A DNA stretch of 64,000 nt. Source: Octopus sinensis. Its lineage: Eukaryota. Made by a program: the position numbers and the translations under genes. Shown piece by piece: positions 5,101-62,826 of this stretch; the stretch's first letter is position 1; every line of letters starts with the position of its first letter. The notes below the pieces were generated by a model. That model was given only the letters and a program-made list of their open reading frames with translations, was not told the origin of the DNA and made no database searches. Location of the stretch: positions 1 to 64,000 of the forward strand of contig NW_021833065.1 in assembly GCF_006345805.1 (NCBI RefSeq). Reading direction: 5' to 3'.

Positions 5101-5821
5101 GTGCAATTACAGTGTATTCATCAAGTAGAACACGATCAAAGACTACTAGGAACTCATTCATTTTTCTAATAAATAAAACAATTTGATTATACATTTGATC
5201 TAAACAATTTTTTTTATTCATCAATAAATGAAAATATTAAAAATACAAATACTGCCTACATTTCTTAATAAAACTTAAAAATCGAGAGCAATTGCTGCCA
5301 AGTAATCGATGATCCAAAGCTTTCTCTATCTCTTCCTACCTATTACTCCTGTTTATCTTTATTGATTTTAGGGGATCCACTAGTTGTGCAATAGAGGTAT
5401 TGGCGATATTAAATGAGTTGTTTTTCACTTGAATTAATATACATTCGATAAATGCAAAATATCTTTTAGGTTATGACATAGAAGCTGAATTATCATAAAA
5501 GGAAAATAATTTCGAGATTTTACTTTCGACACTTTATATTTATTGAATCAAGTTAATATTAATTCAAGTCAGAAACAACTCATTGAATATCATTATTATT
5601 CAACAACTGGATCCCCTAAGAATACTGAACATGTACAAGAAGAATAGATAGAAAGCGATGGAGTGAGGAAGAGCGTGTAAACTAAAACCTGATCTGGCTA
5701 TGAAAAAAAAAAAAGAATTTTATCTGAAAATGTCAGGTGAACTAAAGAAATCACTTGATAGAAAAATAAACAATGGAAAAATAGTGTTTATGGTTTCTAT
5801 ACCAGAAAGAAATTTACTCAC

Positions 5822-6607
5822 CTGACATGCATTGTATAATATTTGATGCTCGTATTTCTTAACAGTTAATATATTCTGGAACATATCATAAAGTTGCTCT
5901 TTGCTAAGAATCAGTTCCGAAGCAGCAGTGGTCCCTCTCTGGGGATGTTTTCGAGGATCTTCTTCACCTCGAAATATCGCATCATATTTGGTCATCCAGG
6001 AACTAAGAACAGTTTCTTTACTGAGACCATCTATCTCCGGTAAACTCCTCACCCGTTTTTCTATATTATTCTTAAAAACCTCTCTGAAATCGTTAGCAGA
6101 TGACCCTCCGCTTTTGACCATTGCTAACACACGATCACTTTTAACGAATACTTCATAATAACTTTGTACAGCATTCGTGAAGGCTTCGTCAGCCACTATA
6201 TTAGTTTCTCCGTTCAAAAAGGCGCTGAATCTATCCTTGATAGTCTGCAGCTGTTGTTTAGTGATTTTGGTTTGTCGCCTGGCCATATCTGTCGGCTGCT
6301 TGGCATTAAACGGGTAAGCAATACACCGCATGACAAAGACATAAAGCTGCAATCGCCTTTTCCTTTCTTCTTCGGATTTTGCATCATTTTTATCAGCATC
6401 TTCACTTTTTTCCCTTTCACTTATTAGTGATGGACTAGGGCTAGATGGCCTTGCTTGACTGGTATTAGGTCGACTACTCTGCACACTCAGGTTATCCCCG
6501 CTTGCTGATAAACTCCGTTCAGCACTAGGTACACTAAGAACATCAGAATTCTCATCTTCGATAGTCTCATTTTCTGATTCTTCTTCACTGGATGATGGAT
6601 CAAGCAT
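5822..6607 (-). CDS. CADPS: Calcium-dependent secretion activator (CAPS/UNC-31), first coding exon (262 codons); gene continues beyond the left end
   Basis: [12 protein letters not shown]-terminus and [59 protein letters not shown] and [13 protein letters not shown] are diagnostic CAPS motifs. Phase-0 donor CAG|GTGAGT at 5822/5821. Confidence 0.96.
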
Positions 6608-6609
6608 AT

Positions 6610-7000
6610 TAGGTATTCACTTTTCCCGAGCTGAATACCCTCGCTCTAAAGTGGTGCTGATATACTAGTCTTTGACTCACAACTGGCTGACAATCAGGTT
6701 CGAAACCAGACTGACAATGGCCATACCTTTAGCGCATGCGCTTTATTCAAGCAGACGACATCAATGATAAAAACCTTTTATCTTTTATTTTAAAATTCAT
6801 ATACTAATATTTCCATTTAATTTATTGAAGCAAAATTTTAACAATATTTTTAGAAAATATTGTATATCATTTGTTAATTTAATAACTTATTTTAATGACG
6901 TCATGCAAAACTGTGGGGACCCTCTGGTACACAATAATAGGACCCCGTAGAACACACATTTATAATGGCAGCCATTATGCCGATTTGAGTTCAGTAATCA
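6610..7000. promoter_or_regulatory. Putative bidirectional promoter between CADPS (-) and KMT2E (+)
   Basis: NRF1/EWG palindrome GCGCATGCGC 6732-6741, full CRE TGACGTCA 6896-6903, and back-to-back YY1-like ATAATGGC-A-GCCATTAT 6962-6978. TSS positions are not visible. Confidence 0.6.
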
Positions 7001-30471: not shown

Positions 30472-30670
30472 TTAACCCTTTAGCATTCAGATTATTTTAT
30501 CAAATGTAATGCTTGTTTATTCTTGAATGATCATGTATTATCTTGTAGCTTCAAGACTTTGATGACCTGACTGTATATTTTTAGAATGACATTTTGGGGT
30601 TAGTGTAATAGATGGGATCTGGCTGATTTGAGTGTAAAGCAGGTAGACTATTTGGGTTGGATATAGCCAA
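30472..30670. mobile_element. Truncated piggyBac-like MITE (family of 32428 and 51588)
   Basis: Starts TTAA-CCCTTTAGCATTCAGATTATT; colinear with 32428-32636; second TIR missing. Confidence 0.7.
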
Positions 30671-31268: not shown

Positions 31269-34200
31269 GTAAGTTTATGATTAACAAATAATAATTTAAT
31301 ATAATTTACAAAAAAAAAAAAGCAGCAAAGAAAACATTAAACAACAGGGTTAACTTTTAGATTTGTTTTGATGCTTTATAAGCTTAAGGGAGATTTGTAG
31401 AAAATGTTTACCCTGTATAGCTTTTGACTTAATCAAGTTAACAATAACTCCTCCTAGATTGTATACTGATGTAATTTATACAAATAGATTTTCAGCTAAT
31501 TTTGTTTCAAATTATGTTATGCAAATCTCCTAAAACATATAATTAAAGATGAATTTTTTGCTGTACTTTTGTTACAATTAGTCTATTTATTTCAGTCCTG
31601 AATCTAGAGAAGCTGTTTGTGCAGCAGCTACAACTCAAGAGGATCCAAATTATCCACCTCCAGAAGCTTATGCTAGATGTTTTGGACTTCCTTATCAAGT
31701 TAAATTGGTAATTCTTTTCTTTTTATCATTTAGAATAAAAAAACTTTTGATGTTAGTGAGTTCACACTGTTTACTTAGGAAAATCCTGAAGCATAATATA
31801 TTTTATCCTATTGACTTCAATAGCACTCGGTAAGATTATTGGTACTGTTCTATTTTGGATAATTTATATTTGTCAAAATATAAATATAGGTGTCTGAAGT
31901 AAATAAAAATTCATTTTTCTGTTAATTATTTACTATTTTATGTGCTTTTATGTTAAACAGAAGATTATGAAATTACACAATTCAATTCAGTAATATCCTA
32001 GCATTTAGTGGTTTGGAGATATAATTACTTGTTAACAAGCTCTCAATATACATCTAAAGTAAGCAGGGAAACAAAATAGTTGATATTTTTTTAGTTATGA
32101 TTTAATTAGAAGTACATCATCTTTTTATTAATCTAAATTCTGTATCCCAAATCTGACTTTTTGCTTAGAAATTTAGAACACACTTTAAACCTTAGGCATT
32201 CCTGAGAATTAACTCCACTTTTATATGAAAGCACATGGCAGATATATATATCAGGCAGCACTCCCATACAATTTGGTATATATATTTTGGCAAGTAGACT
32301 ATGACATATAGAGTGTTCAGTCCAAAACACTGCAACATCTCTGCAGTGAATTTGAACCCATAACATGTGAATATTTAGTATGATACACTTGGTCACTCTA
32401 CTTCTACATGGTTTTTCTGGAAAATTTTTAACCTTTAGCATTCAGATTATTCTGTCAAATTTAACACTTATTCACATTGTTTTAAATTAATCATGCAGCT
32501 TTGAGATTTTCATGATGTGACTGCTTATTTTTAGGACATGTAGGGTAGATGTGAGAGGTTGCATCTAACTGGTTTAAACATAAAACAGGTTGAATATTTA
32601 GGCCGGATGTGGCCAGTTTGAATGCTAAAGGGTTAATATAGTTACCTATCACTGCTATGTAATAGGGTTTTTTTTTAACTATATGTATGTCCTGTTTGTA
32701 TTAGCACAGTCATCTTTCATGAAAGTTTAAATTGCCACTGCTTTTAATATAATTTCCTCATTTGTGCACATTTTATTTATTCCTATTTTTTAGCCTTGCG
32801 AATATGAATTGAATATTTTATCTATTTATCTAGGACCATAACTATGTTGCCCCACCACCTCCCACACCACCCCAATCACCTCCTCCTCTGCCAACACAAC
32901 CACCACCATCATCCAAGATTAATGGCCATTTGGAAATTGATGTCTCCTCTGTGCCTGCTGTTAAAGAAAAGGATGTTGATACTGAAGATAGTATAACAAG
33001 GTGTATATGTGAACTTCAGCATGATGATGGGTATATGATATGCTGTGATAAATGCAGGTGGGTTTTGTTTTTATTTTCTCTTCAAGAATATATAGTTGCT
33101 AAAAAAAAATGTAATTTAATGTAATCATATAAATATCATTAGTGTTTTATATTTGATATTCATATTTTTATTTGATTTGTCTTGATAATTTAATTTTTAT
33201 TCTTCAAATATTTTGCAAGTTATATTTTTTATATTTTTAGTGTTTGGCAACATATTGACTGTATGGGAGTCAGGAATAACATCCCTGACTCTTACTTCTG
33301 TGAGAAATGTGAACCTAGGCAAGTTGATGTTGAGAAAGCTCGTCTTATTCAAACAAGAAAATTGGAAGAATTAACAGGTAATATATTTCTTATAAAATTT
33401 TCATCTATGGTTTATGTATTTTCTGTAATAGTATAGTTTTCAGTTGCCTTCAGATTGTTATGGTTTTCTTACCAAAAATTTTAGTTTAATTTTTTTATTC
33501 ATTATTTTATATAATTATAATCATTTCTCTTAGTTATATTCTTTATGATAAAAATGTTTATATAATGTTAGTCTCAGACATCAGAGAACTCCAGAGAAAA
33601 ATATGAAAAGAGTATATCAAAGAAATTCTATGCATATGCATAAATGTATATGCATACTTCATTGGCTTCAGTCATTGAAATGCACCATGCTAGAGTTTGG
33701 CTAAAGGAGGGTAGAGAAGGAGGCAAGGCAGAATTTGTGAGTGGGGATACAGCATTTTACGTATGTATTTTATGTTTTTCGTGGTTAAAGTTCGCTCTAA
33801 CCTTACTACCTAGTGCCATATTTTTTTAATGACTTCAAAATGAATTGGTGTATATTGGAAGTGTTTGAGTCTTTTCCTGATAGTTTGTAACAGTCCCTCT
33901 AGTCCCCAATGTTTTATAAAAAGACCTAAGTTCTCCAAAAGGATTTTCAGAGTTTTTAGATTCTTTTGGTAATAATCTTTCAGTCGTTTAAGTCATTAGA
34001 CTGAAGCCATGCATGGGCATCGTCTTGAATGATATTAGTCAAACAAATCGACCTCAGTACCTATTTTAACTTTTGTTTTTTAATAATGCTTGGTATTTAT
34101 TTTACCAGTCTCTTTTGCTGATCTACTACGTTACTGGGACATAACAGTCAAGCAGTGGTGGGGACCAAAGACACACACATAAATAATGATGATAACAATT

Positions 34201-49200: not shown

Positions 49201-52200
49201 TAACCACTCATTGTTATTACTCCAACTTCAAATTTTTTATTGAGCAATATTAGTGACTACATTCTGGGTTTTATTTTCATAATTATCCCTGGTGGATTTT
49301 TGTCTCTTCTTTAGACGCAGCCGAGTGAACAGTGGCGGCAGTTGTTCTGAAGCAGCATTGTCTCAAGATGAAAATAGCAATATGGGTAGCAATCAAACAA
49401 CAGCTCTTTCATCTCCACTGGCAGTAGCCCCTTCTCTGGTAGTTACCCTTGCTGGACAAATTTCTAGCCCACAGTCAGTAACTGTGACGGCACCTACTAC
49501 TGTAACTACTATAACACCAACTACTTCACTTTCATCAAGCCTTTCACAAACTCCTCCAGTTCAACCACCACCACAGTCTGCTCCACAAAATATAAATCAA
49601 CAAAATGACATTTCAAATACACCATCAAGTTTCAAGTTCAAAACCAAGAAAGTAGGTTATTTTCATAATTTAATTTTATAAAATGAAAATTTATGATGCC
49701 AAATATTTTCCAAACGTTTTTGTGTTCCTTTATTCAGTTATGTATTTAAGTAAGAAATTTTGAATAAGAAACTTTTCTAAACATAGATTTTATTATTCAT
49801 TTCTTTATTTTATTTAGATGAGTGAATGGCTAGAAGGCAAAGATACGAAAACAGTATTACCAGCTACCAAAACAGAACCATTGGAGGTCAACATAGAAGA
49901 AACTGCATTTGTTACTTGCTTCCATAGTCCACGTAGCTCATTGGAGCATCTTCATCGGAGAATGAGTCACATTTCAGTTTCTGGTAAAATGGACTCAAGT
50001 GTTGGATCTGCTAAAAAAGTAAGTAAATATAATTATAAATAATGATGGGGTGAAGTTTTTACTAAAATACTGCCTCATGATTTTCTTGTACAAGGAATGT
50101 GTGTATCAACTCAAAACACAAGTGATTAAAATAATTAAGTTGAATTGATTGCTTCAGTATTGATCAAAATAAAGACAACTACTTTTTCTATTGTAATATT
50201 AAAACCATATCTAGTTGTAAGTTGTTTGCTCCAACACAGTTACATAGTTATGTAATTCATACTAATGTGAGCAATATACGAATTTTATTAAACTATATAA
50301 ATACTTCTAACTATATCTTAATCAACATCTTTATTAGCAGTTCTTAATTTATCTGTAAAATTAATGCCATTTGTTTAGAGAAAATAAAGGTTTTAATTTT
50401 CTTGAGTATGTGTGAACATGGGAACCTAAAAATTAAATTGAAATTTTTTGTTTTCCTTTTTTTAGCGTTGGCTTCGTCAAGCTATGCATGAGACTGGTCC
50501 TACTGGCATGGACAGTGGCAAGGACTCCCCTCAACCCATCAATTCTGTAGTCTGTGATGTGGCAAGTCCAAATGCTGTTGCCTCCATGCCAAGTCCTGGA
50601 GCTTCTCCTCAAGCAGGTAAAATACCTTTATTCTAATTAACAAAAGATATAAACAAAGCAATAAAATATTTCTGATTTTTACCTGTTTGTTGACAACAAA
50701 AAAAAACAACTTTGTACTGCAGATTTTGTCACTCCACTGAAGAAACGAAGGTTAGCTAGAGAGTCTCTGTCATCAGATCAGCCACTCATGTCTACTCCGT
50801 CCACATCCTCACCATCACAGACATCTAACCTCGATGTACCGTCGACATCTGCTCACTCAATAAGCTTTGAAGATTCTGATATTAAGTCAAGTCAGCAATT
50901 AAAATCACCACCAGAAGATCTGCATTTAGAGGTAATTATTTTATACGTCAACACACATTCCAATATTTGAGAGATGAGGAATTATGTACATTTGACGGAT
51001 ATTTGTCCTTATCTTGTTTGTTGTTAACACAACGTTTCAGCTGATGTACTCTCTAGCCTTTTTGAGATATCTTGGAGAAGTTTCGAACCTGGGTTCTCAT
51101 CCTAAGATATTTTCCCAATATTATTTAGGTCACTGCCTGGAATTGAACTTGGAATCTTGGGGTTAGTAGCCCATGCTCTTAAACACTACGCCATATGCCC
51201 GTAGGTGTATGGCGTAGAGGTTAAGAGCATGGGCTGCTAACCCCAAGATTCCAAGATTGATTCCAAGCAGTGACCTGAATAATAATAATAACAATATTGG
51301 AAAAATACCTTAGGAATGAAAACCCAAGTTCGAAATTCCCCCAGGACACTTGATGAAGGCTGGAGAGTACATGAGCCGAAACGTTGTGTTAACAACAAAC
51401 AAGATGAGGACAAATATCCATCAAATGTAAATAATGTACACATTCCAACATTTATTTACTGGATCTAGTGGTCAATCCATACCAACATGGAAAGGGTATG
51501 TAAAACAATGATGTCAAGCATTCCATATTTAATTAACATTTTGTAAGTTTCCAAATATAATTACATTATATTTTAACAGTAGAACATTTAACCCTTTAGT
51601 GTTTAAACTGGCCATATCCGGCCAAAAGTATTCTGCCTGTTTTATGTTCAAACTGGCCAGATCTGGTCTCTCACACCAACCCTACAATATTGTTTTAAAA
51701 ATTAACAGCTACCTCATAGCTACAAAACAATGCATGATTAGTTCAAAACTATTTGGATAAAAAAGGATTAATTTTGGCAGAATAATGCAAACACTAAAGG
51801 GTTAAGAATTATGTTTTTCTTTGATAATTTTCTTTCTTTACTTTATCATCTTTCTAGAAATACAAATTGATCTCAGCTGAAGCTAACTATTCTGGAATGG
51901 GATCAGAACTCAGGGACTTAATAGAAAGTGATACATGTGAATCCCAACCACCACCTTACAGTGATTCTACTCGAGGAATATCTGACAGTGAAGAGACAAG
52001 TGGGCCTGAAGGATTGGAGAGTTTAGCTGCTGCTGCAGAACAATGCAGTGCAGTTGATGTATCATCTTGTAATTCTAGAACAAATCTTTTGTCACAAGTA
52101 ACAACTCTACAATCAATGACTGCTGATCATGTAAAATCTGAATGTGAAGATGACGAAACACTGGATGCGAGTGAAACTACAGAACATCAAAACCCAGACA

Positions 52201-61065: not shown

Positions 61066-62592
61066 TTACATGAGTTAGTGAATGAAGGAAACGCTGTACT
61101 CTTGGCCCTCCGGGGTTGGCAGGGGATGTTGGGATCAATCAGGCAGCGATCTTCCGTACAGTTACTGTTGAGCAACTCGAGATTTTTGTCGACATGAAAC
61201 TGTGATAACACCCAGTGTGTTGTGCAGTGTGGAGTCCAGTTTCGAATCGAACTTCACAATAATCTTTCTCTCCAAAGTAGCAATTTCAGAGAAAGTGACA
61301 AAAATCAGTCCTATGTATAGGACTACTCATTGCTTAAACTTATTTGTCGGAAATAAATCGGTATTTATAGCACTGTTTTGATGTTTGCTATAGACCTAAT
61401 TATTTAAAATGTTTCATAAAAAAGCTTAAATGCACATCTCGTCAATCGAAGTTGCAAAATAAAAGACTGTATTTTAGCTTAAATAGCTAAAATTGTGCTT
61501 GCAATTAAATAAATAAACCGATTTTTTAAACTCTACTAACGATTGTCATTTTATATACATTTATATTAACTGTTATCATTTCTAGTTTTGCGGTTTAAAT
61601 CATTCGCATGGAAATGGGAAACTCGCATAAAGTTTTTGAGGTCAATATAAAGACCTTCACCCGGAAAAAAGAAAATAGAAAATTAACCAACCCCGGGGTG
61701 TTAACAAGTGTGTAGAAAATGAATATGAACAAAAAAAAATGGGCGCTGACGACCCCTAGGGGTGGGGAGGGGACTTTCGGAAAATTCACAAGATCCGATT
61801 TTTCCGTCATAAATATTTGAATCGGCACAAAGCATTTATTGGTGAAAGGAAAAGGGCACGAAGTTAGGAAACAAAAATGTAAAAAGTATTTTCAGAATCA
61901 TAATTTCCGTTAAGAATACTTTTTTTTTTAAATAGTGGGGATCTACCCAATTCCCTGCCCTTTTTCTTTCTCTTTGTACTTGTATAGCCCAAACTCAGTC
62001 TTGATCCAGCAGATCCGTGATTATTATTTTCTGCTCAAAGATTAGTGTATGTAAGAAAGGGTGGGAGGGGTGGTTAAGACTACTACTTCCAGTAAGTCGG
62101 GCGAATACATAGGAGAAAAGCTTTGTTGGAAAATGAAAATTTATCTTCACATATTTTTCTAGATAATTAATACCTACTATGAAAAATAATCAGTCATACC
62201 ATTTGCTTTTGCAGTCACACCTTTCTTTTAAATATAAACAAACGTTAGTAGTGAACTAGATCACAAATTTTGCAGTAGCTGATACGCTCACTTGACCTTT
62301 TCTATATGTAGATACATGCACGTGGTTGGTTAGTGACATGCAGTATAAAAAAACAGGGTTAGTGGCATAACGGTTATTGCCGCCCAGCTGTTATATTTCT
62401 CAGTAAACATTTTCATATTTCTTTGCAGATTTGTCTGAATTTTGATATCAGTTATGTCCCTTGCTCTCTTTATTTCTCCATGTAACTTTTCGGTCATCGT
62501 TACCAACGGCGATCACGTGTACTTTTTCTGATTGTTACGGGGATGGGGGGTTGAAGTTTACACAAACGCTTGACAATCATTATTCAATCAAT

Positions 62593-62594
<2 letters not shown>

Positions 62595-62646
<52 letters not shown>

Positions 62647-62772
62647 GCCTCTTAGTGTGAGGCATTTATGTGTAATAATGCCCTCTATACAATATATATA
62701 TATATATTATATATATATATATATATAAATGCCTCTTAGTGTGAGGCATTTATGTGTAATAATGCCCTCTAT

Positions 62773-62810
<38 letters not shown>

Positions 62811-62826
62811 GTGTGTGTGTGCGTGT
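62595..62826. repeat. (TA)n array with two identical ~52-bp hairpin-containing inserts
   Basis: ATAAATGCCTCTTAGTGTGAGGCATTTATGTGTAATAATGCCCTCTATACAA at 62641 and 62725. Confidence 0.9.

What the first reader, a model, noticed from the sequence alone, without database searches (positions are those of the whole stretch)
50953..51453. Palindromic tRNA-head plus hammerhead-ribozyme retroelement inserted as one unit
Seen: a ~455-bp near-perfect palindrome. Each arm reads outward from the centre as a tRNA-like head (TGGCGTAGAGGTTAAGAGC..GCTGCTAAC..GATTCC), an (AAT)n spacer, then a type-I minimal hammerhead layout: GACAC-[T]TGATGA-AGGCT..AGCC-GAAACGTT-GTGTT (51345-51390). Stem I is GACAC/GTGTT and stem III is a palindromic AACGTT. 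A single 16-bp TSD brackets both arms, so the dimer integrated in one event. Established: minimal hammerheads with palindromic stem III occur in Penelope-like element LTRs and work as dimers, and PLE LTRs can be inverted. Inference: this is a Pol III-driven, PLE-mobilised SINE/retrozyme hybrid that yields the same ribozyme-bearing RNA from either strand. The catalytic cores of this copy are mutated (TTGATGA; CTCAAAAA on the other arm).
Basis: partly seen in the sequence, partly recalled or inferred. Interest (0 to 1): 0.75.

Follow-up and report, generated by a model that had tools for sequence, protein, structure and literature searches.

The report
Penelope retrotransposon end with tRNA-like promoter
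The palindrome is a decayed, back-to-back pair of end pieces of a protein-coding Penelope-type jumping gene, not a separate element; its end repeat carries a tRNA-like segment at which most short copies begin, so it likely acts as an RNA polymerase III promoter, which would be unusual for a protein-coding retrotransposon.

Summary
The anatomy is real: two head-to-head arms (82% alike, not near-perfect), a 15/16 target-site duplication, tRNA-like heads and a minimal hammerhead that is intact in the family (844 exact copies) and broken here. It is not a stand-alone SINE. The arm is the terminal repeat (pLTR) of a coding Penelope/Poseidon-type element: 26 of 30 loci picked by the ORF carry the head after it (about 30 nt past the stop where read), and a full pLTR-ORF-pLTR copy shows the tail running into the ORF. 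Head-to-head pairs are this family's usual insertion scar (45 of 77 insertions; 36 of 39 two-armed ones have the optional tail on exactly one arm), best explained by reverse transcription from both nicked strands. The unusual part is the tRNA-like A/B-box module: 27 of 32 arms that reach it start there, and TTTT is scarce along the sense strand. That suggests Pol III transcription of short SINE-like RNAs, possibly of the whole element; untested. The copy lies in a normally spliced intron of a KMT2E-like gene. The scan reported this family before on other DNA; those notes gave the lead, which I tested.

The parts
50953..50968 (.). Left target-site duplication (inner 6 bases also match the element tail)
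   Evidence: (D4)
50963..50990 (-). Optional PLE 'tail' (present on the left arm only, cut at family position about 262); in the full element it is coding sequence near the ORF start
51026..51071 (-). Left-arm minimal type I hammerhead, core destroyed (CTCAAAA)
51123..51200 (-). Left-arm tRNA-like head; A box 51193-51183, B box 51148-51139 (GTTCAATTCC, close to consensus)
   Evidence: box consensus from established knowledge
51196..51207 (.). Junction of the two arms at the element's own short palindrome (TGCCC-AC-GGGCA in the family); centre 51201-51202
51203..51278 (+). Right-arm tRNA-like head; A box 51210-51220, B box 51255-51264 with two changes
51279..51295 (+). (AAT)n spacer, very variable in length among copies
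51316..51437 (+). First codons of the PLE ORF (candidate ATG at 51316), overlapping the hammerhead
51345..51390 (+). Right-arm minimal type I hammerhead, C3U in the core and one stem II mismatch; predicted cut after GUU (51385)
51391..51437 (+). Right-arm 3' part ending at the inner (tail-less) end, family position about 238-241
51438..51453 (.). Right target-site duplication
   Evidence: D4
50932..51857 (+). Host intron (GT..AG, 926 nt) of a KMT2E/MLL5-like PHD-SET gene, spliced out in contigs of 4 of 4 presumed RNA runs

Best explanation
The palindrome is one insertion of two 5'-truncated copies of the end repeat of a protein-coding Penelope-type retrotransposon, joined head to head, likely because the element's enzyme nicked both DNA strands and copied the RNA from each, and most such copies begin at a tRNA-like segment that likely works as an RNA polymerase III promoter. 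Shown: the repeat follows the RT-GIY-YIG ORF and, in tandem, runs into its start; insertions carry 10-22 bp duplications; one arm has the ~30-nt tail and the other lacks it; 5' ends pile up at the head. Inferred: (a) a protein dimer starts one cDNA at the outer and one at the inner start site of the same RNA, and the two cDNAs are joined by short homology (about 0.75); (b) Pol III starts a few bases before the head, and every short copy is a new potential source of ~270-nt SINE-like RNAs that the PLE protein copies in trans (about 0.6); (c) the hammerhead would cut only as a dimer or with protein help and is not needed for insertion. This copy is a neutral relic. The PLE origin alone I put at about 0.97.
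For: ORF link: 21 of the 100 listed head-intact copies continue upstream (my count); of 20 fetched, 8 run 387-840 nt into a GIY-YIG ORF; 26 of 30 ORF-selected loci carry the head; L321 is pLTR-ORF-pLTR with the tail reading into the ORF, whose N-terminus matches homolog P0003 (E 2e-20); a 551-aa frame has 1,697 homologs, those listed carrying PF26215 and mostly PF00078. Scar: 45 of 77 insertions head-to-head; 36 of 39 two-armed are tail+/tail-, 0 tail+/tail+ (expected mixed 50%, p 1.5e-8); TSD in 25 of 39 against 16 of 400 swapped-end controls; 12 of 13 in an independent ORF-bearing set. In 16 of the 36 (my count) the tail-less arm reaches further 5', so neither arm is contained in the other. 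Arms of one insertion share 15 derived changes against 4.7 +/- 2.1 between insertions, maximum 12 in 704 permutations. A purified PLE protein nicks and extends both strands from two start sites that bound the tail (PMC11167929, main text read). Promoter: consensus A and B boxes intact; 27 of 32 arms reaching the head stop at -12..+12, 3.5% per nt against 0.16-0.48% elsewhere; one private TTTT in 2,712 nt against 6.5 expected, T4/T3 1 of 25 against 30 of 115 in five other PLE ORFs, p 0.01; 19 T4 runs in 57.9 kb of aligned copies, none shared by more than 2.
Against: No transcript start was observed. 5' ends also pile up at the (AAT)n spacer (28 of 75 arms), so pile-ups can arise without a promoter; the head start coincides with a 12-nt palindrome that favours fold-back or joining. 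TTTT scarcity is not significant against dinucleotide shuffles (P 0.07-0.39) or synonymous-codon shuffles (P 0.05-0.50), G4 runs are also absent (0 against 2.8), another Poseidon-like family here has only 1 T4 per 1.2 kb, and the test was chosen after a lead. In vitro the PLE showed no difference in start site between strands (PMC11167929), so the strict one-tail rule needs an extra assumption. Drosophila Penelope uses a promoter likened to TATA-less LINE promoters (PMC2377424, abstract and discussion). Pfam-A found no family on two ORF pieces directly. The loci were mostly chosen by similarity, not at random (random sample: 3 insertions in 400 kb). No parent tRNA was identified.
Confidence: 0.65

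Rival explanations
1. Same PLE origin, but the tRNA-like segment is a passenger in the 3' UTR; short copies start there because a Pol II start lies at the same place or because the cDNA folds back or joins at the 12-nt palindrome.
For: The palindrome TGCCC-AC-GGGCA sits at the boundary and short inverted head pieces are common; the (AAT)n spacer is a second pile-up with no promoter; shuffle tests of TTTT are not significant; known Penelope pLTRs hold their own promoter (PMC2377424).
Against: Both boxes are canonical and correctly spaced; in at least 13 insertions the arm starts at the head although its partner has no head to anneal to (my count); RT stalling would be expected at the 3' entry of a structure, not beyond it (inference); T4 is depleted while T3 is not.
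Confidence: 0.25
2. A separate non-autonomous SINE (tRNA head plus PLE-derived tail) borrows the PLE enzyme.
For: About four in five head-bearing copies have nothing upstream, so in practice they look and may propagate like a SINE; ORF-linked repeats are 5.1% from the short-copy consensus against 3.5% for two-armed copies (sets chosen differently); Sm-alpha is a precedent for a tRNA-related SINE with a hammerhead.
Against: The head is not a SINE-specific addition: 26 of 30 ORF-selected loci carry it in the same place, and the junction upstream of the head is continuous with the ORF.
Confidence: 0.07
3. The inverted arm is made by one cDNA folding back on itself (self-priming), with the tail trimmed from one end when the intermediate is resolved.
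For: Palindromes at the junction; proposed in PMC3846280 and PMC8557442 (passages read); arms share derived changes; short inverted head pieces exist (L012, L021, L022).
Against: In 16 of 36 insertions, and 6 of 12 long ones, the tail-less arm holds 5' sequence that the tail-bearing arm lacks, so neither is a copy of the other without extra deletions. This concerns only the joining step and is compatible with either promoter reading.
Confidence: 0.2

Closest known systems
Penelope/Poseidon-clade EN+ PLEs (Poseidon of Anolis, PMC11167929; Drosophila virilis Penelope, PMC2377424; Adineta Pen families, PMC3846280)
   Same: Single RT + C-terminal GIY-YIG ORF, pLTR overlapping the ORF start, hammerhead in the pLTR, optional 30-40-nt tail on one end, inverted 5'-truncated arm, partial tandems, short TSDs.
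   Different: A tRNA-like A/B-box module about 30 nt after the stop codon, with a strong 5' boundary there; none of the passages read mention one. Clade not tested by a tree.
Minimal PLE hammerheads (PMC4209133, parts 1-2 of 4 read)
   Same: Short stem I (5 bp), 6-bp stem II with G10.1-C11.1, one extra base after A9, no loop 3, palindromic 15.2-16.2; that paper also notes pairs 100-700 bp apart on opposite strands.
   Different: Cleavage triplet GUU; activity untested here.
Sm-alpha / Sj-alpha SINE-like elements of Schistosoma (PMC2770079, PMC6765202; passages read)
   Same: tRNA-related sequence plus hammerhead, Pol III transcription proposed, thousands of copies.
   Different: Canonical active hammerhead, tandem arrays, no coding parent described in those passages; here dispersed, head-to-head and part of a coding element.
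Metazoan non-LTR retrozymes (PMC7229834 passages; bioRxiv 10.64898/2026.07.22.740005 part 1 of 5)
   Same: Short type I hammerhead repeats related to PLE pLTRs.
   Different: Defined as head-to-tail arrays giving circular RNA; not seen here.
TRIMp3 elements Cassandra, Helenus, Ajax (PMC10886601, passages)
   Same: Small-RNA-derived Pol III promoter inside a terminal repeat.
   Different: Non-coding LTR elements; here the repeat belongs to a coding non-LTR PLE.

Membership tests
EN+ Penelope-like element | RT plus C-terminal GIY-YIG in one ORF linked to the repeat | tested here: met
   (YVDD and GSPLSP motifs; homologs carry PF00078, PF26215, some PF01541); direct Pfam scan of two pieces was blank; all copies seen are broken or truncated
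EN+ Penelope-like element | pLTR formed by tandem arrangement, overlapping the ORF start | tested here: met
   L321, second junction in L326
EN+ Penelope-like element | Optional 30-40-nt tail on one end; inverted 5'-truncated arm; short TSD | tested here: met
EN+ Penelope-like element | Placement in the Penelope/Poseidon clade by RT tree | not tested
   assigned from domain order and motif likeness only
Minimal type I hammerhead | CUGANGA and GAAA core, UH site, stems I and II | tested here: met
   family consensus; core intact in 25 of 54 arms; not met in this copy
Minimal type I hammerhead | Stem covariation | tested here: inconclusive
   copies decay neutrally from one sequence (core 3.4%, other sites 3.4%), so the family cannot show it; no cross-species DNA alignment made; Rfam models do not hit this copy
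Minimal type I hammerhead | Self-cleavage as monomer or dimer | not testable with these tools
   only contigs were available
tRNA-derived SINE | tRNA-related head with A and B boxes | tested here: met
   parent tRNA not identified among 15 distinct tRNAs
tRNA-derived SINE | Head absent from the autonomous partner (separate non-autonomous family) | tested here: not met
   26 of 30 ORF-selected loci carry it
tRNA-derived SINE | Pol III transcription | tested here: inconclusive
   indirect only: 5' boundary, T4 scarcity
Non-LTR retrozyme | Head-to-tail arrays of full units | tested here: not met
   dispersed; only partial tandems such as L002, L096
Non-LTR retrozyme | Circular RNA intermediate | not testable with these tools
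   no raw RNA reads offered

The most novel reading that the evidence does not exclude
A protein-coding retrotransposon has captured a tRNA-type promoter into its terminal repeat and is transcribed, ORF included, by RNA polymerase III, so that one family is both the autonomous element and its own SINE, with each insertion built from two cDNAs started at two fixed sites of one RNA.
Probability: 0.3. Interest if true: 0.8.

Novelty: new variant of a known kind. Interest (0 to 1): 0.5.

Why it matters
The palindrome itself is ordinary for Penelope elements. Two things could matter. First, a tRNA-like promoter inside the terminal repeat of a coding PLE would be a direct route by which a SINE arises from within its partner, and if the 2.5-kb ORF is read by Pol III it raises the question of how an uncapped RNA with a ribozyme inside its first 25 codons is translated. 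Second, the strict one-tail rule and non-nested arms give genome-scale support to a two-strand priming model for PLE insertion, whose later steps PMC11167929 calls unvalidated; this 270-nt unit is a compact substrate for testing it. For annotation, some ten thousand or more 'SINE' copies in this genome are PLE ends.

Tried and rejected
Partner search by Pfam GIY-YIG: 30 loci, 12 more regions, 30 loci of a second Poseidon-like family and 20 long regions showed no shared repeat; the profile missed the right family, and I held the separate-SINE reading until the lead. A search with the 51-aa tail peptide (150 hits, longest frame 199 aa) and 20 of its longest frames found no ORF continuation; listing flanks of exact motifs did. 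Close same-strand hammerhead pairs on C1 were separate insertions or local duplications. ARAGORN at lowered thresholds gave many spurious calls and is not used. No RNA holder was listed as on record; contigs could not show starts, cleavage or editing. Summed contig depth is not used as copy number. Selection on the hammerhead core after insertion: none seen. A polymorphic empty site: contigs of four runs from four coded organisms each run 22-30 nt into the left end, so the insertion appears shared; none spans it. Look-up of earlier findings by sequence returned nothing. Papers not held: PMC4795812, 10.1038/nature14668, PMC5785218. Dfam and Repbase could not be searched, so the family may already have a name there. 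Print searches for a tRNA/Pol III module in PLEs listed no such report; subscription journals and bioRxiv supplements are outside the library.

Full report
Observation. The insert spans 50969-51437 between direct repeats at 50953-50968 and 51438-51453 (15 of 16 identical). The arms read outward from 51201-51202 and are 82% alike. Each has a tRNA-like head, a spacer and a hammerhead layout, as described; cores are TTGATGA (right) and CTCAAAA (left). ARAGORN and Rfam do not recognise this copy. It lies 37 nt into a 926-nt GT..AG intron (50932-51857) that contigs of 4 of 4 presumed RNA runs, from four studies, splice out. The host is a KMT2E/MLL5-like gene: PHD match E 7.5e-8 and a SET-like motif on the same strand; that these exons belong to the same gene is inferred. 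The genome (2.72 Gb, about 30 large contigs) looks octopus-like; this is a guess from general features and from earlier notes.

The family. The arm is a dispersed repeat. Thirty close copies give an intact minimal type I hammerhead, which folds with stems I and II and has the features listed in PMC4209133 (parts 1-2 of 4 read). Exact motif counts are 844 (44-nt hammerhead), 3,818 (tail) and 1,244 (head), each with 0 for the reversed control. Forty evenly spread 10-kb regions held 3 insertions, about 20,000 genome-wide (95% range 4,000-60,000); 322 kb chosen for other PLEs held none, so the lower half is likelier. Core and non-core sites decay alike (18 of 525 against 206 of 6,113): copies are neutral after insertion.

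The palindrome is an insertion scar. Of 77 insertions annotated in similarity-selected and random loci (two duplicate loci dropped), 45 are head-to-head, 30 single-orientation and 2 complex. Arm lengths vary from 16 nt to full length. 3' ends fall in two groups, about 235-245 and 262-271. Of 39 insertions whose arms both reach the 3' region, 36 have one end of each kind, 3 have two short ends and none has two tails (p 1.5e-8). TSDs were found in 25 of 39 against 16 of 400 swapped controls, and in 4 of 30 single-orientation cases, where ends are less certain. In an independent set of long, ORF-bearing insertions the split is 12 of 13. This window fits: tail on the left, none on the right. An optional 30-40-nt tail at one end and an inverted 5'-truncated arm are described PLE traits (PMC3846280 and PMC8557442, passages). 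PMC11167929 (main text read) shows that a purified PLE protein nicks and extends both strands and that the tail lies between two RT start sites. In 16 of the 36 mixed cases (my count) the tail-less arm reaches further 5' than the tailed arm, so neither is a copy of the other; arms of one insertion also share more derived changes than chance (15 against 4.7). I infer two cDNAs, probably from one RNA. Against this, that paper saw no strand difference in start site, and fold-back pieces do occur at junctions.

Not a separate SINE. My first partner searches failed. Earlier notes of this scan said that the repeat belongs to a coding PLE, so I tested it. Listing the 45 nt upstream of exact heads showed one recurring sequence in 21 of 100. 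Twenty of these were fetched; they lead into a GIY-YIG ORF whose stop lies about 30 nt before the head. Conversely, 26 of 30 loci chosen by that protein carry the head behind the ORF. L321 is a whole pLTR-ORF-pLTR unit of about 2.7 kb, broken by stops and frameshifts, in which the tail reads into the ORF; L326 shows the same junction; the N-terminus, hammerhead codons included, aligns with an 847-aa homolog. So the 'SINE' is the pLTR: 3' UTR with the tRNA-like module, then the first 52 or so codons.

What the tRNA-like module does. The consensus has canonical A and B boxes; no parent tRNA stood out among 15 tested. Among 80 arms chosen by hammerhead, tail or at random, 27 of the 32 that reach the head end within -12..+12 and 5 pass on; elsewhere the loss is 0.16-0.48% per nt. 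That is where a Pol III start is expected (established knowledge). The full-length copy has 25 runs of three or more T (27.3 expected) but one of four or more (6.5 expected), and that one is private; five other PLE ORFs give 30 of 115 (p 0.01). The limits are real: shuffle controls are not significant, the (AAT)n spacer is a second pile-up (28 of 75), a short palindrome sits at the boundary, and no start was observed. I put Pol III starts at about 0.6 and Pol III transcription of the whole ORF at about 0.3. Drosophila Penelope places its promoter in the pLTR too, likened to LINE promoters (PMC2377424, abstract and discussion), so the position is as expected and the type would be new.

The hammerhead. 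In a head-to-head pair the two motifs are on opposite strands and cannot dimerise in cis; in the host pre-mRNA the arms are predicted to pair into one long duplex. Such motifs cleave poorly even as dimers (PMC4209133), and in Poseidon cleavage needs the protein and is dispensable for insertion (PMC11167929). Nothing suggests ribozyme activity at this locus.

Comparison and verdict. It is a member of the EN+ PLEs by every feature tested; the clade was not tested by a tree. It works like a SINE in that most copies start at the head, but fails the test of being a separate family; it is not a retrozyme array. tRNA-related hammerhead SINEs (Sm-alpha; PMC2770079, PMC6765202, passages) and Pol III promoters in terminal repeats (PMC10886601, passages) are known; six searches listed no tRNA-type module in a coding PLE, and the word tRNA does not occur in the supplement of PMC8557442, but Repbase, Dfam and subscription papers were out of reach. 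Verdict: new variant of a known kind, interest 0.5.

Noticed in passing
window 51588-51805: A 218-bp element with 17-bp terminal inverted repeats and TTAA at both ends (piggyBac-like MITE, label recalled) in the same intron; a contig of run X17 (organism D) joins 51587 to 51802, i.e. the empty site, while that organism has the Penelope insertion. Related copies at 30472-30669 and 32423-32636.
   Followed up: partly
window 50969-51437: The arms are predicted to form a duplex of about 220 bp in the host pre-mRNA, 37 nt from a splice donor: a candidate A-to-I editing substrate; splicing appears normal.
   Followed up: partly
L099:8010-8070 and L113: A second minimal-hammerhead repeat (stem III loop palindromic) with its own inverted truncated arm.
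   Followed up: no
L105:880-930, L124, L138: A third hammerhead-like repeat with a short stem II and the same GAAACGT arrangement.
   Followed up: no
L109:4900-5200 (same place as L039): Head-to-head hammerhead pair upstream of a GIY-YIG ORF of another PLE family.
   Followed up: no
L216-L221: A young PLE family with several intact 760-880-aa frames; no canonical hammerhead was found within 1.5 kb downstream of its GIY-YIG.
   Followed up: no
consensus position about 145; window 51343-51345: A pyrimidine run followed by AG ends at the start of stem I, where the Drosophila Penelope intron ends (PMC4209133); a possible splice acceptor, not tested.
   Followed up: no
window 50010-50018 and 50683-50719: Alternative splice junctions of the host gene in the RNA contigs, including an exon skip 50010 to 50683.
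   Followed up: no
window 5720-6616 (-): A 298-aa exon-like frame of another gene on the minus strand; no Pfam hit.
   Followed up: partly
window 62589-62811 and 5324-5663: Two further self-complementary stretches in the self-BLAST.
   Followed up: no
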